Source of the DNA: Rhodocyclaceae bacterium
Lineage (GTDB): Bacteria > Pseudomonadota > Gammaproteobacteria > Burkholderiales > Rhodocyclaceae
DNA length: 64,000 nucleotides
Direction of reading: 5' to 3'
Assembly (NCBI GenBank): GCA_028714035.1
Contig: JAQTNA010000017.1
Span: 6,750-70,749 of the forward strand
A model generated the notes under the pieces. The model was not told the DNA's origin, searched no databases, and saw nothing but the letters and a program-made list of their open reading frames with translations. Both the position numbers and the translations under genes were made by a program. Shown piece by piece: positions 32,616-38,893 of this stretch. Within the stretch, counting starts at the first letter, position 1. Each line of letters starts with the position of its first letter.

Positions 32616-32957
32616 ATGCCGACCCTTTCCGACGTTTTCCGCGACGCCGATGCGCACTCGCTGCTTGCCTTTTTTGATTCCCTGGACCTGGACCTTTTCG
32701 AGAAAAAGCTCTTCGAGAAGAACGGCAAGCCCTATCTCACCTGCCTTGCCACGGGCAAGGAGAAACAGGCCAAGCCCGAGGGGCGTGAAGCAAAACCCGC
32801 CAACGGTACACGCCCGTATCTGACGGCTGAACACCTTGTCCTGACCCGCGGCCGACAGTGCCATGCGGCAATCATCCACACCCCGCACCTACCTATACAA
32901 CGCTCTTCCCGCAAAAACAGCCTCCCCGGAAAACTTCGCGTAGAATCCGCCGGTTGA
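32616..32957 (+). CDS. orphan ORF, possibly a gene remnant; function unknown
   Basis: 113 aa and GC-rich. Only the first 55 or so residues look protein-like (MPTLSDVFRDADAHSLLAFFDSLDLDLFEKKLFEKNGKPYLTCLATGKEKQAKPE). The rest is low-complexity and basic. No RBS or family was recognised. Confidence 0.25.
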   Translation: MPTLSDVFRDADAHSLLAFFDSLDLDLFEKKLFEKNGKPYLTCLATGKEKQAKPEGREAKPANGTRPYLTAEHLVLTRGRQCHAAIIHTPHLPIQRSSRKNSLPGKLRVESAG

Positions 32958-32986: not shown

Positions 32987-34327
32987 ATGAATTACCTTGA
33001 GGCGATTGCGACTGCGACTGCGACTGCGCCTGCGGAGCATCTCGCCAGAACCAAGGCCCGGCTGGCTGACCTTTACAGGCGAGATTCGCGCCCATGGATC
33101 GTAGCCTTTTCGGGTGGAAAAGACTCCACGTTGTTACTCCAACTTGTCTATGAGTTGCTGTTGGAGTTAGGGAAGCAAGCCGGAAAAACCGTGCACGTAG
33201 TCTCGTCGGACACCGGCGTTGAGGCTCCCAATGTCAGTGCCTACCTAGCTAGAACTTTGGAGTGCATTGCTCACGGAGCGCAAGAGGCCGGACTTCCTTT
33301 TCAGGTGCACTTGGTAAAACCCGCCCCGCATGAGAGCTTTTGGGCAAAGCTCATCGGTGCCGGGTACCCGTCGCCAACGCGCTGGTTCCGCTGGTGTACG
33401 ACCACGATGAAAATTCGGCCTACACGGCGCATCATAGAAAAAATTACCCAACATGACGGTAGTGTTATCCTTCTGCTTGGCACTAGGGTTGATGAGAGCA
33501 GTGACCGTGGCAAGAGGATTCAAAACCGTCAAAGCACGGCAGATGGATTGAATCCGCATCATGAAATTCCCAACGCCTTGGTCGCTACCCCCATCGTAGA
33601 TTGGTCAACCGAGGAGGTATGGGATTACCTGTTTTCCCACAACCCACCTCCATGGGGAGGGCGCCACGATTTCTTGCTGGAACTCTATCGGCAGGCGGCT
33701 GGCGGAGAATGTCCCGTTGTCTTCGATCTTTCAACTCCCTCTTGTGGCGGCAGTCGTTTTGGCTGCTGGACCTGCACTGTGGTCAAGGAAGACAAGTCAA
33801 TGCAAGGATTCATCCAATCCGGTGAAGTCCAATTTGCTCCGTTGAATGATTTTCGGGATAAGTTGAAGCGAGTTCGAGAATTGCAAGACTGGCGCTCCCC
33901 TCGAAAGAAGGACGGCACAGCCGGCCCTGGCCCTTTTCGCCCAGAGAGGCGGGTTGAACTTTTTCGAGAGCTGTTGGCCCTGGAAAAACAGGTTGGTGAA
34001 AGACTCATAAGCGATGAGGAAATTCATGGAATCCAGGAGCTTTGGACCCGCGAATTTGATTTGAGCGGAACGGCGTTAAAGCTGGCGGCAGAATTTGGGA
34101 GGCGCGTGGAAACGATGGACGAGCTTGATCATCCCCCCCTGGAACAGCAAGTTCTGGACGAATTGCTTGCTGCCGGCGACCTTGAGCCAGATCTTATAGA
34201 CCGACTGTTAAGCCTTGTACTAAGGGAGTACCCAGACCTGACGGTCTGGGGTTCGAAGGCGGCCTTGGAACGTGAAATTGCTCAGGCCATCGCCGCTTCG
34301 GTCGAGCGCCAAGGAGGAACAGCATGA
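32987..34327 (+). CDS. dndC: DNA phosphorothioation system sulfurtransferase DndC (PAPS-reductase/ATP-pyrophosphatase fold)
   Basis: Track ORF 32858..34327 is trimmed to ATG 32987 (GGAG RBS 7 nt upstream). PP-loop WIVAFSGGKDSTLLLQL and RWCTTTMKIRP. The C-terminal Cys cluster is ECPVVFDLSTPSCGGSRFGCWTCTVV. These are the DndC hallmarks. Confidence 0.92.
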   Translation: MNYLEAIATATATAPAEHLARTKARLADLYRRDSRPWIVAFSGGKDSTLLLQLVYELLLELGKQAGKTVHVVSSDTGVEAPNVSAYLARTLECIAHGAQEAGLPFQVHLVKPAPHESFWAKLIGAGYPSPTRWFRWCTTTMKIRPTRRIIEKITQHDGSVILLLGTRVDESSDRGKRIQNRQSTADGLNPHHEIPNALVATPIVDWSTEEVWDYLFSHNPPPWGGRHDFLLELYRQAAGGECPVVFDLSTPSCGGSRFGCWTCTVVKEDKSMQGFIQSGEVQFAPLNDFRDKLKRVRELQDWRSPRKKDGTAGPGPFRPERRVELFRELLALEKQVGERLISDEEIHGIQELWTREFDLSGTALKLAAEFGRRVETMDELDHPPLEQQVLDELLAAGDLEPDLIDRLLSLVLREYPDLTVWGSKAALEREIAQAIAASVERQGGTA

Positions 34328-36366
34328 TTTTTCGCCGGCTTTTCCTTGAAAACATCTTCTCATATCGCCATGCAGAGTTCGATTTCGGGGGTGAAACCGC
34401 CGACAAGAACATAGTTCTCATATTTGGCCGCAACGGATACGGAAAAACCAGTCTCACGAACGCCATTAAATTGCTTTTTGCCGGCCCTAATGACGACATG
34501 CGTTCTTCCATTTTGCCTGGTGCGAAACCAAAGGCTGATGAGTACGTGCTTGGCATGGGTGACGAATGGATGGGGATTTTTAACGCTCATGCACGGCGGG
34601 ACGGCGAACGCGACTGCTGGGTACGCCTTGTTTTCGAAGAAAGCGGCGTCGAGGTAGAAGTCGAGCGACGCTGGTCCATCATGGACGGTGGTTACAAGGA
34701 AGAACTGAAAATAGACATTCATGGCGACGCCACTCGCCATCTTGTCGACGAGGACGCGCAGCATTTTCTGAATGAACGCCTCCCCGAAGACTATCTTCCG
34801 TTCTTTTTCTTCGATGGCGAGCAAATTCAGCGCTTAGCGGAGGCGAACCGTAGCCAAACCACAAGGGAAATCGAGCGACTGTTACAACTTTCGCCAGTCG
34901 ACACCTTGGCGGAATATCTCGAAAAAGTTGCGCGAGCTTGGCGCAACAGCGATATGCCCAGCCATGTCAAGGCGGTGCTTGCACGGCTGGAGCGAGAACG
35001 GGCCGAACTGGAGGCTAGGGCGGCCGAAGCGACTGACCGGCAAGAAGTCCTGACGCTTGAGCGCGAAGATCTAGAACGTTTGATCGAACAGGAAGACCTT
35101 TATCTCGATAGCCGCCGAACCGGCCAACTCGTCGCCGCAGAGGGGCCGCTAAGAGTAGAGCATCAGCAACGCCGCGAGGAACTAGAGGTTTTGCAGCTTA
35201 GAATCGCTGAGGCATTGCCAACGAATGCTTTTCTGTTGGCTAATTCCGGCTTGGTTAGTAAGGCAGTTGAGGATATCAAGAAGTTATTTGATAATCCATC
35301 AGGAGCTCAAGCCGAAATCCTTCAGGATATTTACAACAGTCTGCCAACCGATTTATTCAAGTCGCCGCATCCTTCCCCTTTGCTCACTGAAAATCAGGTG
35401 CGTTTCTATAGGGAGCGCCTTGCGCATCTATTGCAGGCTTACATACCTAGCCCCGGCATGATCAGCGACGGTGTAATACAACTTGAAACCTCTCGCGCCC
35501 GCCAATTGCTGACGCTCTTGGAACATGCATTACAGTCCTCGCAAGAACGTGATGACCGAGTTATGCAACTCAGAGAAGCAGTACGTCTCAAGAACCATAT
35601 TCGAACGATACAGGATAAGCTGGACGACATAAGCAGCATGCCCAACGAGGAGCAGCAGGAGTACATCGAGCGGAAGGCTGATAACAACCGGCGCCGCGAA
35701 AGAATTGGCGCCATTGGAAAAGAACACGAAGAAGTTGATAAATCGCTACGGGATTTTGCAAACAAAATTGAAGCCAAAGGTAACGAAATACGCGCTCAGG
35801 AAAAGAAGGTTTCTGTCAGCGAGAAAAACCGCCGTAAGCTTGACCGTACGGAAGCTTTGAAACGGTTTTTCGCCCGCTATAAGAATGAACTTAAAAAGAC
35901 AAAACGAGCAGCCATCGAAGAAGCGATTAATCGTCGTTTCCGAGAGTTAATGACTAGTCATGGATTGATCGCGCATATTCGGGTGGATGAGTTTTTTGGC
36001 GTTCATTATTTGGATGCGCAGGGAAATCCGGTGGGAATGGCGAGCATTTCAGCAGGCATGAAGCAATTAGCGGCAACGGCGTTGTTATGGGCTCTCAAGG
36101 AGGTTTCGGAGAAGGACGTTCCTATCGTGATTGACACGCCCCTTGCGCGTATTGACCGCCAGCATCAAGAAAATCTCTTGACCCGCTACTACCCGCAAGC
36201 AGGGAAGCAGATCATTATCCTTCCCACGGACGCTGAAATTGACCGAGAAAAGCATGCATTGATTGCGCCAAGGATATATAGGGAATATTTGCTTGAAAAT
36301 TCAGATGGTCAAGACACGAAGGTAGTTGAGGCGCCTATCTTCCCTGCGGAGAATAGCCATGTCTGA
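34324..36366 (+). CDS. dndD: DNA sulfur modification protein DndD (SMC/ABC-like ATPase)
   Basis: 680 aa. An ATGA overlap joins it to dndC. N-terminus MIFRRLFLENIFSYRH... with Walker A FGRNGYGKTS. It has a long central coiled coil, signature SAGMKQL, and Walker B/D-loop PIVIDTPLARID. Confidence 0.92.
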   Translation: MIFRRLFLENIFSYRHAEFDFGGETADKNIVLIFGRNGYGKTSLTNAIKLLFAGPNDDMRSSILPGAKPKADEYVLGMGDEWMGIFNAHARRDGERDCWVRLVFEESGVEVEVERRWSIMDGGYKEELKIDIHGDATRHLVDEDAQHFLNERLPEDYLPFFFFDGEQIQRLAEANRSQTTREIERLLQLSPVDTLAEYLEKVARAWRNSDMPSHVKAVLARLERERAELEARAAEATDRQEVLTLEREDLERLIEQEDLYLDSRRTGQLVAAEGPLRVEHQQRREELEVLQLRIAEALPTNAFLLANSGLVSKAVEDIKKLFDNPSGAQAEILQDIYNSLPTDLFKSPHPSPLLTENQVRFYRERLAHLLQAYIPSPGMISDGVIQLETSRARQLLTLLEHALQSSQERDDRVMQLREAVRLKNHIRTIQDKLDDISSMPNEEQQEYIERKADNNRRRERIGAIGKEHEEVDKSLRDFANKIEAKGNEIRAQEKKVSVSEKNRRKLDRTEALKRFFARYKNELKKTKRAAIEEAINRRFRELMTSHGLIAHIRVDEFFGVHYLDAQGNPVGMASISAGMKQLAATALLWALKEVSEKDVPIVIDTPLARIDRQHQENLLTRYYPQAGKQIIILPTDAEIDREKHALIAPRIYREYLLENSDGQDTKVVEAPIFPAENSHV

Positions 36367-37876
36367 TATCAGCATCGGAGCATTGGACGAACAGACTATT
36401 GAGCGAGTTATTGAGCAAGGGTTGGGAGTCCGGGCAAAAAGGGACGCCAGAAAATGGGTTGCGCTGAGGCTTGCGCTTGCCGCCTCGTTGCGACTACCTA
36501 CGCCGCCGGATGAATCCCTCGATCACATTGAGGATCGCAAGGGCGGCAATAGTTATCATCTAGAACAGGTGACAGGCAAAGGGTTGCGACATGAAGATGG
36601 CGAACCGAGGCAGGATTATGACGACACTGCTTGCGCTCTGCTATCTATTTTCCATCAAATGAATCTGTTTGATGACTATGCGGCTTATAGGCGCTTTTTA
36701 CAGCGACATATCCGCCGTGGCCTCCGGGAGTTTCGAACAGGTTGGCGCGATTCTCATGACTTTCATGAATTCTTGTTTCAAGAGCTTTTCTCCGGTGAAT
36801 CAAGACACGCGGTCGACGATGGATTAGTAGACCGTCTTTCAGGCGCGCTGGAAGAAATCGGTATTACGGCAGAGACTCGTCGCGTTGTAGAAGGTCCGCG
36901 CCTGACCCGCTTTTTTCTCTATTTACCGTCAGCGGACGATCTTGCTCCCATTACGAGGGGTTTGGGGAAATTGGGGCATATTCTTGGCTTGGGGGCTCAG
37001 AACGCCTTCCTCACCCATACGGATGAACCAAAGGTCATCGCACTGGATATACCTAGAAGGCAGGACACTTGGTCCACTGTCATGGGCTATCAGTTGGCCG
37101 ATTGGGCAGATAAATATGAAGGAGATTTTCTCCTGCCAGTATGGCCAGGGGTGGACGTTATTGGCAACCCATTCGTGCTTGATCTCGCTGTTGCGCCCCA
37201 TTTATTGGTTGGTGGAACTACTGGCAGTGGGAAGAGCGTTTGTCTTAATGCGCTGATAGTGTCTTTGCTTCGGGGGCCGAGTCGAGAGCGGCTACAGCTT
37301 TGCCTCATTGACCCAAAACGCGTCGAGTTCGAACCATATAGGCGGCTGGAGGGGCTTTTCGGTGGAGAAGTAATCACTGAAGCCCAGGAGGCGCGTGCCG
37401 TGCTTCTACAATTGGTCGTAGAGATGGAAACGCGTACCCAATTATTGGCTCAAGTCGGCGCACGTGACTTGGCTGAAGCGCACCAACACGGGGTGATGCT
37501 CGACGTACTGCGTATTGTGGTAGTGGTAGAAGAGCTTGCTGATTTGCTGATGCAGGACGAAGATGCCGAAATGCCGCTTGTACGTCTTGCCGGAAAGGCA
37601 AGGGCTTCCGGTATTCATTTGGTACTTGCGACCCAACGGCCTGACGCAGCGACCTTTTCGGGGCTATTGCGCTCCAATATTCCAAGCAGAATTGCGCTCA
37701 CGGTGCAGAAAGCGTCGGAGTCCAAGATTATTTTGGACGAAACAGGGGCGGATCATCTTACCGGGCAAGGTGACATGTTGATAAAAACGGCCCAGGGGAC
37801 GACCCGCGTTCACGGTGTAAAGGTCAGCACGGATGATATTGCCAGTGCTATTAGCCGTTACCAGCGAAACGGATAA
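36359..37876 (+). CDS. FtsK/SpoIIIE-family DNA translocase ATPase with an N-terminal DndE-like domain (putative DndE-FtsK fusion)
   Basis: Track ORF 36326..37876 is trimmed to ATG 36359, giving an 8-nt overlap with dndD. The C-terminal 350 or so aa contain the FtsK alpha/beta motor: GPRLTRFFL, IALDIPRR, Walker A LVGGTTGSGKSV, Walker B VVVVEELADLLM, HLVLATQRPD, RIALTVQKASESKIILDETGADHLTGQGDML. The N-terminal 140 or so aa (RKWVALRLALAASLRLPTPPDE...GGNSYHLEQVTGKG...RRFLQRHIRRGLREF) fit the DndE pattern. That assignment is pattern-level only. Confidence 0.85.
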   Translation: MSDISIGALDEQTIERVIEQGLGVRAKRDARKWVALRLALAASLRLPTPPDESLDHIEDRKGGNSYHLEQVTGKGLRHEDGEPRQDYDDTACALLSIFHQMNLFDDYAAYRRFLQRHIRRGLREFRTGWRDSHDFHEFLFQELFSGESRHAVDDGLVDRLSGALEEIGITAETRRVVEGPRLTRFFLYLPSADDLAPITRGLGKLGHILGLGAQNAFLTHTDEPKVIALDIPRRQDTWSTVMGYQLADWADKYEGDFLLPVWPGVDVIGNPFVLDLAVAPHLLVGGTTGSGKSVCLNALIVSLLRGPSRERLQLCLIDPKRVEFEPYRRLEGLFGGEVITEAQEARAVLLQLVVEMETRTQLLAQVGARDLAEAHQHGVMLDVLRIVVVVEELADLLMQDEDAEMPLVRLAGKARASGIHLVLATQRPDAATFSGLLRSNIPSRIALTVQKASESKIILDETGADHLTGQGDMLIKTAQGTTRVHGVKVSTDDIASAISRYQRNG

Positions 37877-38098: not shown

Positions 38099-38362
38099 AT
38101 GCCAACCATCAGTCAGTTTTTCGGCATCCTGATTTACATGTATATTCGCGGCGAGCACAATCCGCCGCATTTTCATGCGCTTTACGCCGAGCATGAAGCC
38201 CTGATTGACATTCAGACCCTCCAGGTCATTGGCGGCAGCCTGCCGCGCCGGGCCTTGGTCATGGTGCTGGAGTGGGCCAATGAACACCGTGCGGAATTGA
38301 TGGAGGACTGGAAATTATGCCGAGCGAAACAGTTGCCCAAACCCATCGAGCCCCTGGAGTGA
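38099..38362 (+). CDS. DUF4160 domain-containing protein
   Basis: 87 aa. MPTISQFFGILIYMYIRGEHNPPHFHALY is the DUF4160 hallmark. It is paired with a DUF2442 gene, which is the usual two-gene arrangement. Confidence 0.85.
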   Translation: MPTISQFFGILIYMYIRGEHNPPHFHALYAEHEALIDIQTLQVIGGSLPRRALVMVLEWANEHRAELMEDWKLCRAKQLPKPIEPLE

Positions 38363-38637
38363 TTCCCGCCGCGCCATGGCGATTGAAGGCGGTCAGTGCG
38401 CAGCCAGGATGGCGGCTGGCGGTCACTTTTAACGATGGCCTGACGGGGATCGTTGATCTTGCCGGCTTGGTCAACGGAACCGACGCGGGAGTGTTCGAGC
38501 CCCTGCGCGACCCGGACTTTTTTTCTCATGTTTTCCTCGATTACGGGGCGGCGGCGTGGCCAAACGGCGCCGACTTGGCGCCCGACGCCATGCACGAGGA
38601 AATCCGCCGCCACGGCATTTGGCTTGTTACGGAGTAA
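38359..38637 (+). CDS. DUF2442 domain-containing protein
   Basis: Track ORF 38317..38637. GTG 38359 overlaps the upstream stop (GTGA). PWRLKAVSAQPGWRLAVTFNDGLTGIVDL...AAWPNGADLAPDAMHEEI is DUF2442-like. Confidence 0.8.
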   Translation: MIPAAPWRLKAVSAQPGWRLAVTFNDGLTGIVDLAGLVNGTDAGVFEPLRDPDFFSHVFLDYGAAAWPNGADLAPDAMHEEIRRHGIWLVTE

Positions 38638-38668
38638 TTCAGATTTCCAATCTAACGGAGAACCGGCA

Positions 38669-38893
38669 ATGACTTCGAAGCGCATCGTCATCGTCGCCGG
38701 CCCCAACGGAACTGGGAAGACCACCTTCGCCCGTGGAACCCATCTGCCGCCAAGTATGGCCCCAGTTGTCTCCGGCAAATGCTGCACGAGCGGCACCAGC
38801 CGGCCCGCTCGGTGCCGATGGAGGTATTCGCATTCTAGGGCAATCAGGCCCCGATTTATCAGCCTAACGGTACGTCCCAGGGCGATCGCATGA
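38669..38893 (+). pseudogene. decayed zeta-toxin/AAA-type ATPase gene (only the N-terminal P-loop segment is recognisable)
   Basis: MTSKRIVIVAGPNGTGKTTFAR is the N-terminus of the zeta-toxin-like P-loop kinase family. After about 22 codons the frame becomes basic, low-complexity sequence, consistent with a deletion or frameshift. Confidence 0.55.

What the first reader, a model, noticed from the sequence alone, without database searches (positions are those of the whole stretch)
36359..37876. Predicted fusion of a DndE-like nicked-DNA-binding domain to an FtsK/SpoIIIE hexameric DNA pump
Seen in sequence: residues from about 150 to the end contain the FtsK alpha/beta motor in canonical order (GPRLTRFFL, IALDIPRR, GGTTGSGKS, VVVVEELADL, HLVLATQRPD, RIALTVQKASESKIILDETGADHLTGQGDML). 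There are no N-terminal membrane helices and no C-terminal gamma (KOPS-reading) domain. The first 140 or so residues (…RKWVALRLALAASLRLPTPPDESLDHIEDRKGGNSYHLEQVTGKG…YAAYRRFLQRHIRRGLREF) resemble the small DndE family in spacing and conserved positions. The gene also occupies the dndE slot after dndD. Established knowledge: DndE is a protein of about 120 aa that binds nicked dsDNA in the DndCDE complex, and FtsK-type motors translocate along dsDNA. Inference: a soluble motor tethered to the PT machinery could make modification processive or directional, or could act against unmodified DNA.
Basis: partly seen in the sequence, partly recalled or inferred. Interest (0 to 1): 0.8.

Follow-up and report, generated by a model that had tools for sequence, protein, structure and literature searches.

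The report
DndE fused to FtsK motor
The gene is real and does encode a DNA-binding DndE domain joined to a complete, soluble FtsK-type DNA motor in a three-gene DNA-sulfur-modification operon, but this fusion is widespread and has already been described by comparative genomics, so it is another member of a known family.

Summary
ORF 36359-37876 (+) encodes an intact 505-aa protein.

- **DndE domain (residues 1-145).** Pfam DndE is below threshold for this copy (18.8 vs 25 bits) but matches all 41 aligned relatives. A profile of the domain retrieves standalone 128-137 aa DndE proteins lying in dndC-dndD-dndE operons. hhalign against a canonical DndE gives 92% probability. The AF2 model's only credible PDB matches are two chains of DndE 4LRV.
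- **Motor (residues 156-505).** This is a complete FtsK alpha+beta motor (TM 0.77-0.82 to 2IUS/6T8B) with intact Walker A, Walker B and TQRPD motifs. It has no membrane anchor and no gamma domain.
- **Context.** The gene is translationally coupled to dndD, after dndC, on a ~6-kb low-GC island.
- **Not an artefact.** More than 120 full-length homologues of 491-514 aa exist in Beta- and Gammaproteobacteria, Magnetococcales, Desulfobacterota, rhizobial plasmids and Campylobacterota.
- **Already described.** Krishnan et al. (NAR 2024, PMC10853773) report HerA/FtsK domains fused to DndE next to a DndD-related ATPase.

The most likely function is the DndE subunit of a DndC-DndD-DndE phosphorothioation module, with an added ATP-driven DNA-tracking motor; this is inferred, not shown. 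Six of ten related loci carry two further genes (an ABC ATPase and a weakly Toprim-like protein), which are missing here. Novelty is low and interest modest.

The parts
32988..34327 (+). dndC (PAPS-reductase-like sulfurtransferase). The longest ORF starts at GTG 32858; the likely start is ATG 32988 (446 aa).
   Evidence: TIGR03183 DndC 336 bits against a cut-off of 290, and Pfam PAPS_reduct. The gene caller gives 446 aa. A GGAG precedes ATG 32988.
34324..36366 (+). dndD (coiled-coil ABC ATPase, 680 aa), with a 4-nt overlap with dndC. It has no CxC zinc hook.
   Evidence: TIGR03185 DndD 272 bits against a cut-off of 246. PADLOC best hit is PbeC at 428 bits, with DndD at 294 bits. The protein has a single Cys and no CxC.
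36359..37876 (+). dndE::ftsK fusion gene (505 aa plus stop), with an 8-nt overlap with the dndD stop.
36359..36793 (+). DndE-like domain, residues 1-145. Secondary structure: strand 4-6, helix 8-21, helix 28/32-44, strand 64-66, helix 88-99, long helix 107-128, C-terminal helix 135-144.
   Evidence: - Pfam DndE at E<=0.01 in 41 of 41 relatives, best 4e-10.
- The domain profile retrieves standalone DndE proteins that pass the Pfam gathering score.
- hhalign to a canonical DndE gives 92% probability.
- AF2 pLDDT 86.5; the top Foldseek hits are 4LRV (DndE) at probability 0.97 and 0.92.
36794..36823 (+). Inter-domain linker, residues 146-155, with lower model confidence and variable sequence.
   Evidence: Mean pLDDT is 69 for residues 141-150 and 80 for 151-160. 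These alignment columns are variable.
36824..37123 (+). FtsK alpha domain, residues about 156-255.
   Evidence: The family PDB profile aligns from position 146-150 to FtsK 2IUS/2IUU. Pfam FtsK_alpha matches 22 of 41 relatives. Foldseek aligns about 375 columns to the FtsK motor.
37124..37873 (+). FtsK beta (P-loop motor) domain, residues about 256-505. The protein ends at the beta/gamma boundary.
   Evidence: Pfam FtsK_SpoIIIE at E=4e-42. The NCBIfam FtsK match ends at model position 1258 of 1355. Foldseek matches 6T8O/2IUS/6T8B at E about 1e-30, with target-normalised TM 0.77-0.82.
37211..37237 (+). Walker A motif GGTTGSGKS (residues 285-293).
   Evidence: Residues G286 and T288-S293 are invariant in 41 sequences.
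37517..37546 (+). Walker B motif VVVVEELADL (residues 387-396).
   Evidence: E392, A394 and D395 are invariant.
37631..37645 (+). TQRPD motif (residues 425-429): sensor-1 glutamine and arginine finger of the HerA/FtsK clade.
   Evidence: These residues are invariant in 41 sequences. The feature is as defined for the clade in PMC10853773.
32500..38800 (.). Low-GC island (GC 0.49-0.56 against 0.62-0.68 in the flanks) carrying the dnd operon and a DUF4160/DUF2442 pair. It lies between a murU-like gene and hslO.
   Evidence: Composition profile. Flanking genes were identified.

Best explanation
The gene encodes the DndE subunit of a compact, horizontally acquired DndC-DndD-DndE DNA-phosphorothioation module. 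In this family the DndE DNA-binding head (two ribbon-helix-helix-like units) is fused through a ~10-residue linker to a complete, soluble FtsK alpha/beta ATPase.

**Shown here:** the domain identities, the intact catalytic motifs, the operon structure, and the conservation of the fusion.

**From established knowledge:** DndC is the sulfurtransferase. [quoted passage not shown] IscS can replace DndA. FtsK alpha/beta hexamers translocate on dsDNA.

**Inferred:** the motor oligomerises on dsDNA and uses ATP to move the DndE heads, and the associated DndD/DndC, along the DNA, or to open it locally. The double-RHH head would then play the sequence-reading role that the missing gamma domain plays in FtsK. 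Sulfur would come from a housekeeping IscS, because no dndA lies in the window.
For: **Domain identities**
- FtsK motor: Pfam E=4e-42; family profile against FtsK 2IUS E=2e-84; Foldseek E about 1e-30, TM 0.77-0.82; catalytic residues invariant.
- DndE domain: all 41 relatives hit Pfam DndE. The domain profile finds 102 clusters among 1.84 billion proteins, including standalone 128-137 aa proteins that pass the Pfam DndE gathering score and lie in dndC-dndD-dndE operons. hhalign gives 92% probability, E=5e-7, to the canonical DndE of Mesorhizobium. Foldseek's top two of 350,542 PDB chains are DndE 4LRV, and every other hit has probability below 0.1.

**Context**
- dndC and dndD pass the equivalog cut-offs.
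- Start and stop codons overlap, 4 nt and 8 nt.
- In all 10 loci examined the fusion directly follows a DndD-like ATPase, and in 9 of 10 dndC directly precedes that ATPase.
- Besides the window, a three-gene dndC-dndD-fusion operon occurs intact in two Campylobacterota-like loci, L089 and L090. L086 has the same layout with dndD fragmented. This makes the three genes the minimal conserved unit.
- The fusion is the only DndE homologue in the window.

**Literature**
- DndD/DndE is an obligate core pair, and DndE-HerA/FtsK fusions occur in PT systems (PMC10853773).
- An extended DndE (DndEi) with an ATPase/helicase domain is essential for PT modification in Riemerella (PMC6435447).
Against: - There is no experimental evidence for this family.
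- Canonical DndCDE needs no translocase.
- No dndA or dndB lies in the 64-kb window, so sulfur supply is assumed.
- On Mesorhizobium plasmid pM0123d the fusion sits in a second DndD2-fusion-ATPase-hypothetical module, downstream of a complete dndA-C-D-E set with its own canonical DndE. There it need not be the modification DndE.
- In 6 of 10 loci the fusion is followed by an ABC ATPase and a weakly Toprim/AriB-like protein, which hints at a defence role.
- The motor's best defence-database hit is the C-terminus of the restriction protein SspH.
- Hexamer formation and the geometry of the DndE heads were not modelled.
Confidence: 0.6

Rival explanations
1. The DndD-like ATPase and the DndE::FtsK protein are mainly the DNA-scanning part of a defence (restriction-side) module. 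The module would normally work with the downstream ABC ATPase and a Toprim-like nuclease, in the way the FtsK-type motors of DndH/SspH are proposed to work. In this window the effector genes have been lost, so the operon is a modification-only or vestigial remnant.
For: - The two extra genes follow the fusion in 6 of 10 loci, including the closest relative examined (75% identity).
- The ATPase hits PtuA/AriA models, and the ~285-aa protein hits AriB/DUF4435 weakly. The latter has conserved E...D, GxVDRD and WExE motifs.
- In Mesorhizobium the module is separate from a complete dndACDE set.
- The motor hits the SspH C-terminus at 161 bits.
- PMC10853773 places these motors in the same clade as some DndH motors.
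- In one relative with three genes, dndD is fragmented.
Against: - dndC is directly attached to the module in 9 of 10 loci, and no other DndD/DndE pair is present in those loci. PT modification there would have no DndE unless the fusion supplies it.
- Intact three-gene operons occur in unrelated lineages.
- All three genes in the window are intact and translationally coupled.
- The Toprim assignment is weak: Pfam E=0.012 in 1 of 6 sequences, and no PDB hit.
Confidence: 0.2
2. The ATPase part acts as a local DNA-unwinding helicase, as reported for DndEi, rather than as a ring translocase. It would expose a single strand at the target motif for sulfur insertion.
For: [quoted passage not shown] Several family members are annotated with 'Helicase HerA central domain' (DUF87).
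Against: - The domain is 32-35% identical to FtsK motors, which track on duplex DNA, and superposes on them.
- No Bacteroidota (DndEi-bearing) sequences appeared in any search of this family, so homology with DndEi's ATPase domain is unproven.
- The DndEi paper could not be read.
Confidence: 0.12
3. The fusion is an assembly or sequencing frameshift that joins a separate dndE to a separate FtsK-like gene.
For: None beyond the prior possibility in a metagenome-assembled genome. Pfam DndE is sub-threshold in this copy.
Against: - An identical protein was found on an independently assembled contig.
- The best 120 homologues are almost all full length (491-514 aa) and 48-75% identical, and the 41 aligned are collinear across the junction, with invariant residues on both sides (W129, H133, F135; G179, R181, R184).
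- About 57 distinct 50%-identity clusters are fusions of 445-531 aa.
- Members occur in finished genomes, for example Desulfonema limicola, Helicobacter cetorum and Campylobacter corcagiensis.
Confidence: 0.01
4. It is a mobile-element DNA pump (TraB/TcpA-like conjugation or segregation ATPase) that lies next to dnd genes by chance.
For: The gene lies on a low-GC island. There are weaker hits to TraB, TcpA and EccC. An integrase lies near one related locus.
Against: The DndE head and the adjacency to DndD are constant in all 10 loci. The island carries no conjugation or replication genes. FtsK proper is by far the best motor match.
Confidence: 0.02

Closest known systems
DndE-HerA/FtsK fusion proteins of Dnd systems ('clade-3' HerA/FtsK domains; Krishnan, Burroughs, Iyer, Aravind, NAR 2024, PMC10853773, citing their NAR 2020 ABC-ATPase study)
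   Same: The architecture and context are the same: a HerA/FtsK ATPase fused to DndE in one polypeptide, encoded next to a DndD-related ABC ATPase in PT-modification neighbourhoods. The window protein fits this description in every respect tested.
   Different: Nothing material. The paper gives the fusion one sentence and no mechanism or experiments. It does not describe the accessory ABC ATPase plus ~285-aa gene pair or the three-gene minimal form. No Toprim or OLD nuclease is mentioned in this context, and the terms DUF4435 and PARIS found nothing. I could not map this sequence onto their tree.
DndEi of Riemerella anatipestifer (Barbier 2013; Zheng et al., JBC 2016; summarised in PMC6435447)
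   Same: It is an extended DndE carrying an additional ATPase domain. That domain is essential for PT modification, and its ATPase is stimulated by target-motif DNA. It is the only experimental precedent for a motor-bearing DndE.
   Different: It was described as a helicase. Whether its ATPase is of HerA/FtsK type is unknown to me, because the primary paper is not held. No Bacteroidota sequences were recovered among relatives of the window protein, so it may be an independent fusion.
Canonical DndE (about 110-140 aa; E. coli B7A structure 4LRV; Pfam PF08870)
   Same: The fold is the same (top Foldseek hit; TM 0.64-0.68 normalised on DndE). Shared motifs include RLAxAxSLRIP and HxxRG. It occupies the same slot after dndD.
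   Different: - Only 11-13% identity to 4LRV.
- There is an insertion between the second strand and its helices (residues ~67-87).
- About 350 extra residues carry the motor.
- Binding to nicked DNA was not tested.
FtsK alpha/beta motor (E. coli 2IUS, P. aeruginosa 2IUU/6T8B)
   Same: 32-35% identity over about 375 aligned positions. Both the alpha and beta domains and all the ATPase motifs are present.
   Different: There is no N-terminal 4TM anchor, no long linker and no gamma (KOPS-reading) domain. It carries an N-terminal DndE head instead and lies in a dnd operon rather than being the cell's segregation FtsK. For comparison, Desulfonema has a separate 784-aa FtsK with all four domains.
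C-terminal HerA/FtsK ATPase of the PT-dependent restriction proteins DndH/SspH
   Same: The P-loop clade is the same. PADLOC SspH models match residues 217-484 at 124-161 bits. The literature places DndE-fused motors with some DndH motors.
   Different: DndH/SspH are proteins of about 1,700 aa carrying a restriction-endonuclease (REase) domain, an inactive methylase and target-recognition domains (TRDs). None of these is present here.

Membership tests
DndE (Pfam PF08870) | Sequence match to the family model at or above the curated threshold | tested here: inconclusive
   This copy scores 18.8 bits against a cut-off of 25 (E=0.0021), over residues 31-124. All 41 aligned relatives match at E<=0.01, the best at 4.4e-10.
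DndE (Pfam PF08870) | Profile-level homology to bona fide standalone DndE proteins | tested here: met
   The N-domain profile retrieves 128-137 aa proteins at E=1e-8 to 1e-15 in 1.84 billion sequences. These score 31-45 bits on Pfam DndE and lie in dndC-dndD-dndE operons. hhalign to the Mesorhizobium 'DndE family protein' gives 92.4% probability, E=5e-7.
DndE (Pfam PF08870) | DndE fold: two tandem strand-helix-helix units, an elongated last helix and a C-terminal helix | tested here: met
   The AF2 model has pLDDT 86.5, with elements E4-6, H8-21, H28-44, E64-66, H88-99, H107-128 and H135-144. The Foldseek top two hits are 4LRV, at probability 0.97 and 0.92 and target-normalised TM 0.64-0.68, although the E-value is only 0.19. 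A sequence-only profile search of the PDB found nothing.
DndE (Pfam PF08870) | Encoded as an obligate pair directly after a DndD-type ABC ATPase | tested here: met
   In the window the gene overlaps the dndD stop by 8 nt. The arrangement is the same in all 9 other loci.
DndE (Pfam PF08870) | Binds (nicked) dsDNA and is required for PT modification | not testable with these tools
   This needs biochemistry and genetics.
FtsK/SpoIIIE (HerA/FtsK clade P-loop motors) | Family model match above threshold | tested here: met
   PF01580 scores 144.5 bits against a cut-off of 24. The family profile against FtsK 2IUS gives E=2e-84.
FtsK/SpoIIIE (HerA/FtsK clade P-loop motors) | Walker A, Walker B, sensor-1 glutamine and adjacent arginine finger | tested here: met
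   GGTTGSGKS at 285-293, VVVVEELADL at 387-396 and TQRPD at 425-429 are all invariant in 41 sequences.
FtsK/SpoIIIE (HerA/FtsK clade P-loop motors) | Alpha plus beta domain fold of the FtsK motor | tested here: met
   The full-length AF2 model has pLDDT 88.6 and pTM 0.89. Foldseek matches 6T8O/2IUS/6T8B at E about 1e-30, target-normalised TM 0.77-0.82, over 369-391 columns.
FtsK/SpoIIIE (HerA/FtsK clade P-loop motors) | Hexameric ring that translocates dsDNA | not testable with these tools
   No multimer prediction is available, and activity needs experiment.
Cellular chromosome-segregation FtsK (orthologue) | N-terminal 4-TM membrane anchor | tested here: not met
   There is no FtsK_4TM hit in 41 members. 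The N-terminus is a soluble DndE fold. The only hydrophobic peak is the Walker B strand.
Cellular chromosome-segregation FtsK (orthologue) | C-terminal gamma (KOPS-binding winged-helix) domain | tested here: not met
   The protein ends at FtsK model position 1258 of 1355. There is no FtsK_gamma hit in 41 members.
DndEi (extended DndE with helicase/ATPase domain) | DndE domain plus an additional ATPase domain in one polypeptide within a dnd cluster | tested here: met
   The definition is from PMC6435447.
DndEi (extended DndE with helicase/ATPase domain) | Homology of the additional domain to that of R. anatipestifer DndEi | not tested
   The DndEi sequence and primary paper were not available. 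No Bacteroidota members were seen in the family searches.
Dnd phosphorothioation module (DndA/IscS-DndC-DndD-DndE) | DndC and DndD equivalogs in one operon with DndE | tested here: met
   TIGR03183 scores 336.3 against 290.4, and TIGR03185 scores 271.7 against 245.85. The reading frames overlap.
Dnd phosphorothioation module (DndA/IscS-DndC-DndD-DndE) | Dedicated cysteine desulfurase (DndA) in the locus | tested here: not met
   tblastn with the Mesorhizobium DndA found nothing in the 64-kb window. IscS elsewhere in the genome could substitute (established knowledge; PMC8569181).
Dnd phosphorothioation module (DndA/IscS-DndC-DndD-DndE) | Phosphorothioate linkages present in the host DNA | not testable with these tools
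   This needs LC-MS/MS or iodine-cleavage mapping.
PbeABCD / CxC ABC-ATPase-anchored system | [quoted passage not shown] | tested here: not met
   PADLOC's best hit for the ATPase is 'PbeC'. However, the protein has one Cys and no CxC, and no HKD/SF2 gene is in the island.

The most novel reading that the evidence does not exclude
The FtsK motor would turn this Dnd system into a DNA-tracking phosphorothioate writer. A ring of six DndE heads pumped along duplex DNA would explain how sparse, partial PT patterns are laid down. In its five-gene form (dndC, dndD, dndE::ftsK, an ABC ATPase and a Toprim-like protein) the same tracking complex would hand unmodified DNA to a PARIS/OLD-like effector. 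That would be a PT-linked defence type that has not been described as such, and the window would carry a modification-only derivative of it.
Probability: 0.2. Interest if true: 0.6.

Novelty: already known. Interest (0 to 1): 0.28.

Why it matters
How the DndCDE machinery finds its short target motifs, and why it modifies only a fraction of them, is still unresolved. A natural fusion of the DndE DNA-reading head to a well-understood dsDNA translocase is a useful handle on that question. The motor can be inactivated by a single Walker A mutation, and translocation can be measured with established FtsK assays.

The value here is a clean, compact three-gene example and a mapped family, not a discovery. 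The architecture has been published, and the protein is already in public databases. In this MAG it is annotated only as an 'FtsK/SpoIIIE domain-containing protein', so the practical gain is a corrected annotation: DndE-FtsK fusion, PT modification operon.

Tried and rejected
1. **Species-representative genome scan.** Scanning with the family alignment was swamped by cellular FtsK genes, because the back-translated patterns came from the motor. Only 2 of 80 loci were true fusions, so it gave no phyletic picture. I used protein searches and contig look-ups instead.
2. **Sequence-only PDB search with the N-domain profile.** It found no DndE. Homology had to be established through Pfam on relatives, standalone intermediates, hhalign and fold search.
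3. **Link to Riemerella DndEi.** The JBC 2016 paper and the NAR 2020 ABC-ATPase paper are not held. Papers that cite DndEi give no domain detail. I suspected that low-GC family members were Bacteroidota, but they proved to be Campylobacter, Helicobacter and Aliarcobacter. The link remains open.
4. **PbeC/CxC reading.** PADLOC's top label suggested it, but it is rejected because there is no CxC motif and no HKD-helicase partner.
5. **Remnants of the accessory genes.** tblastn found no trace of the accessory ATPase or the ~285-aa gene in the window. The P-loop fragment at 38453-38893 is unrelated to them.
6. **Toprim assignment of the ~285-aa accessory protein.** It stays weak: DUF4435 at E=0.012 in 1 of 6 sequences, AriB at E=1e-4, and no PDB hit.
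7. **Promoter and terminator scan of the island.** It gave nothing above shuffled expectation. There are no tRNA genes in the window to mark an integration site.

Full report
**Observation**

The ORF at 36359-37876 (+) translates without interruption to 505 residues plus a stop. The ATG at 36359 overlaps the stop of the upstream gene by 8 nt and has a GGAG 7-10 nt upstream. Every homologue begins at the equivalent methionine.

The upstream genes are dndC and dndD:
- dndC is the ORF from 32858, with a likely start at ATG 32988. It scores 336 bits on TIGR03183 against a cut-off of 290.
- dndD is 34324-36366. It scores 272 bits on TIGR03185 against a cut-off of 246.

The reading frames overlap, 4 nt between dndC and dndD and 8 nt between dndD and the fusion.

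**The C-terminal two thirds are a complete FtsK motor**
- Pfam FtsK_SpoIIIE matches residues 259-428 at E=4e-42.
- A profile of 41 family members matches E. coli and P. aeruginosa FtsK motor-domain structures at E=2e-84, from profile position ~146 onward.
- An AlphaFold2 model of the whole protein (pLDDT 88.6, pTM 0.89) superposes on FtsK motor structures 6T8O, 2IUS and 6T8B. The Foldseek E-value is about 1e-30, target-normalised TM is 0.77-0.82, and identity is 32-35% over about 375 columns.
- Walker A (G286, T288-S293), Walker B (E392, A394, D395) and the TQRPD sensor/arginine-finger motif (425-429) are invariant across the family.
- The match to the NCBIfam FtsK model stops at position 1258 of 1355. 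None of 41 members hits FtsK_gamma or FtsK_4TM.
- The only hydrophobic peak falls on the strand carrying the Walker B motif.

**The N-terminal 145 residues are a DndE domain**

For this one copy the Pfam DndE match is below threshold (18.8 vs 25 bits, E=0.0021). On that match alone the claim would be weak. Four independent lines strengthen it.
1. All 41 aligned relatives hit Pfam DndE at E<=0.01, the best at 4.4e-10.
2. A profile of the N-domain alone was searched by HMMER against 1.84 billion representative proteins and found 102 clusters. These include standalone proteins of 128-137 aa that pass the Pfam gathering score (31-45 bits) and are encoded in ordinary dndC-dndD-dndE operons.
3. hhalign of the N-domain profile against the canonical 142-aa 'DndE family protein' of Mesorhizobium amorphae gives 92.4% probability and E=5e-7 over 98 columns. 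Shared motifs are RLAxAxSLRIP and HxxRG.
4. An AF2 model of residues 1-150 (pLDDT 86.5) has the strand-helix-helix, strand-helix-long-helix, C-terminal-helix layout. Its two best matches among 350,542 PDB chains are chains of the DndE crystal structure 4LRV (probability 0.97 and 0.92, TM 0.64-0.68 normalised on DndE). Every other hit has probability below 0.1. The Foldseek E-value (0.19) is weak, and a sequence-only profile search of the PDB found nothing, so the domain is a divergent DndE.

The layout agrees with the two tandem ribbon-helix-helix units that Krishnan et al. describe for all DndE proteins (PMC10853773). The short 7-residue link before the long helix and the ~10-residue C-terminal helix resemble their DndD-associated 'clade 1'. 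That last assignment is my inference.

**Not an artefact**

An identical protein is in NCBI from a Rhodocyclaceae MAG and occurs on an independently assembled contig. The 120 best database hits are almost all full-length proteins of 491-514 aa with 48-75% identity. The 41 that were aligned are collinear across the junction, with invariant residues on both sides. About 57 clusters at 50% identity are fusions of 445-531 aa.

Named sources include:
- Azovibrio, Sulfuritalea, Nitrosospira, Gallionella, Methylocaldum, Methylobacter and Candidatus Kentrum
- Magnetococcales
- Desulfobacteraceae and Desulfonema limicola
- Mesorhizobium and Rhizobium plasmids
- Campylobacter, Helicobacter and Aliarcobacter

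NCBI already names some members 'DndE family protein' or 'DUF1832 domain-containing protein'.

**Context**

GC content falls from 0.62-0.68 to 0.49-0.56 between about 32.5 and 38.8 kb. The operon therefore sits on a ~6-kb acquired island. On one side lie lptD, amgK and a murU-like gene. On the other lie hslO, an arsC-family gene, an HDOD gene and a hybrid histidine kinase. After the fusion gene the island carries only a DUF4160/DUF2442 pair and a P-loop fragment. No dndA, dndB/DGQHR, canonical dndE or known restriction partner is in the 64-kb window.

I examined nine other loci.
- **DndD adjacency.** In every one the fusion directly follows a DndD-like ABC ATPase.
- **dndC adjacency.** In eight of them, and in the window, dndC directly precedes that ATPase.
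- **Accessory genes.** In six (Azovibrio, Desulfonema, two metagenomic contigs, Sulfuritalea and Mesorhizobium) two more genes follow. One is an AAA_21/AAA_15 ABC ATPase of ~380-414 aa. The other is a ~285-aa protein with conserved E...D, GxVDRD and WExE motifs and weak DUF4435/AriB similarity. These two genes are absent from the window.
- **Three-gene form.** Two Campylobacterota-like loci have an intact three-gene operon whose DndC carries an N-terminal rhodanese domain. A third three-gene locus (L086) has a fragmented dndD.
- **Two pairs on one plasmid.** On Mesorhizobium plasmid pM0123d the order is dndA, dndC, dndD, canonical dndE, small protein, second DndD-like ATPase, fusion, ABC ATPase, hypothetical protein. 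The window's DndD resembles that second ATPase along its full length (29% identity, 209 bits). It resembles the first, canonical DndD only in parts.
- **Not the CxC type.** PADLOC's best label for the ATPase is 'PbeC'. However, the protein has one cysteine and no CxC hook, so it is not the CxC/Pbe type defined in PMC10853773.

**Mechanism**

The following is shown:
- a DndE head, a ~10-residue linker and an intact FtsK alpha/beta ATPase in one chain;
- translational coupling to dndD and dndC;
- the three genes as the minimal conserved unit.

Established knowledge supplies the rest of the frame. DndC is the sulfurtransferase. DndD/DndE is an obligate pair thought to scan and recognise target DNA. 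IscS can replace DndA (PMC10853773, PMC8569181). FtsK alpha/beta hexamers translocate duplex DNA.

From this I infer that the fusion is the DndE of a DndC-DndD-DndE phosphorothioation module. Its motor would assemble on DNA and drive one-dimensional movement, or local remodelling, of the modification complex. The DndE head would take the sequence-reading role that the gamma domain has in FtsK. I put this at 0.6.

The main rival (0.2) is that the DndD-like/fusion pair belongs chiefly to a defence arm that works with the downstream ATPase and Toprim-like protein. The Mesorhizobium arrangement, the 6/10 linkage and the motor's similarity to the SspH C-terminus (161 bits) suggest this. The window copy would then be a modification-only or decaying remnant. 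Against this rival, dndC is attached in 9 of 10 loci with no other DndE available.

A second rival concerns only the mode of action: helicase-like local unwinding, as reported for DndEi, at 0.12. Frameshift artefact and unrelated mobile-element pump are effectively excluded.

**Comparison with what is known**

Krishnan et al. [quoted passage not shown] They cite their 2020 study for this. That is exactly this architecture.

An extended DndE with an essential ATPase/helicase domain (DndEi) has been studied in Riemerella (PMC6435447). I could not establish whether its ATPase is homologous. The primary paper is not held, and no Bacteroidota sequence appeared among relatives.

The protein is not an orthologue of cellular FtsK, because it has no anchor and no gamma domain. 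It is also not a CxC/Pbe component.

**Verdict**

The fusion is, however, an already described and widespread family, and this locus is one more member in a reduced three-gene form. What remains open is experimental: whether the motor translocates, whether it is needed for PT, and what the accessory ATPase/Toprim-like pair does. Interest is 0.28. The most novel reading still allowed, a tracking PT writer that in its five-gene form feeds a PARIS/OLD-like effector, has a probability of about 0.2.

Noticed in passing
L002:11488-13533, L003:11497-13535, L004:11500-13579, L085:9518-11533, L087:9509-11548, L088:9491-11532 (absent from the window): In 6 of 10 related loci the fusion gene is followed by two further genes. 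One is an AAA_21/AAA_15 ABC ATPase (377-414 aa; hits PtuA/AriA models). The other is a ~285-aa protein with conserved E...D, GxVDRD and WExE motifs and weak DUF4435/AriB similarity. This could be a PARIS/OLD-like effector pair tied to this dnd variant. I did not find it described in PMC10853773.
   Followed up: partly
L088 (Mesorhizobium amorphae plasmid pM0123d, NZ_CP015322.1 735625-752446): One plasmid carries a complete dndA-dndC-dndD-dndE set plus a small protein. This is followed immediately by a second DndD-like ATPase, the DndE::FtsK fusion, the ABC ATPase and a hypothetical protein, with a DGQHR protein on the opposite strand. Two DndD/DndE pairs of different types therefore sit in tandem.
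   Followed up: partly
window 34139-34309 (DndC residues 428-484, counted from the GTG at 32858): The C-terminal ~57 residues of the window's DndC resemble the separate 64-aa 'DNA modification system-associated small protein' of Mesorhizobium (30% identity; E=1e-8 in a small local database). The small protein may therefore be a detached DndC tail, or the reverse.
   Followed up: no
L089:6365-7990 and L090:6191-7990: In Campylobacterota-like members of the family, DndC carries an N-terminal rhodanese domain (541-599 aa). This suggests a built-in sulfur relay in a three-gene operon without dndA.
   Followed up: no
window 38099-38637: A DUF4160 (87 aa) / DUF2442 (106 aa) gene pair with overlapping frames lies directly after the dnd operon, inside the low-GC island.
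   Followed up: partly
window 38453-38893 (+): This ORF has a Walker A motif (IVIVAGPNGTGKTTFARG) after an apparently non-coding-like N-terminus, and the rest of the protein is missing. It looks like a truncated or frameshifted P-loop gene, and it is unrelated to the accessory ABC ATPase of related loci.
   Followed up: partly
window 32616-32957 (+): A 113-aa ORF between the murU-like gene and dndC was called as a gene on the independent contig. It has no Pfam or PADLOC match, and its status is unknown.
   Followed up: no
L003:4974-7963 (Desulfonema limicola CP061799.1): Here dndC is split into 191-aa and 271-aa pieces by an inserted 503-aa ORF with no Pfam hit, probably an insertion element. 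The dnd operon in that finished genome is likely inactive.
   Followed up: partly
L086:5966-8008: In the 70%-identical relative that also lacks the two accessory genes, dndD is broken into three ORFs (240, 88 and 330 aa). This suggests decay of the three-gene form in that lineage. The window's dndD is intact.
   Followed up: no
proteins P0326-P0363: There are many ~405-425-aa proteins with only FtsK_alpha and FtsK_SpoIIIE domains (no anchor, no gamma, no DndE head). This is another group of soluble FtsK-like motors whose context was not examined.
   Followed up: no
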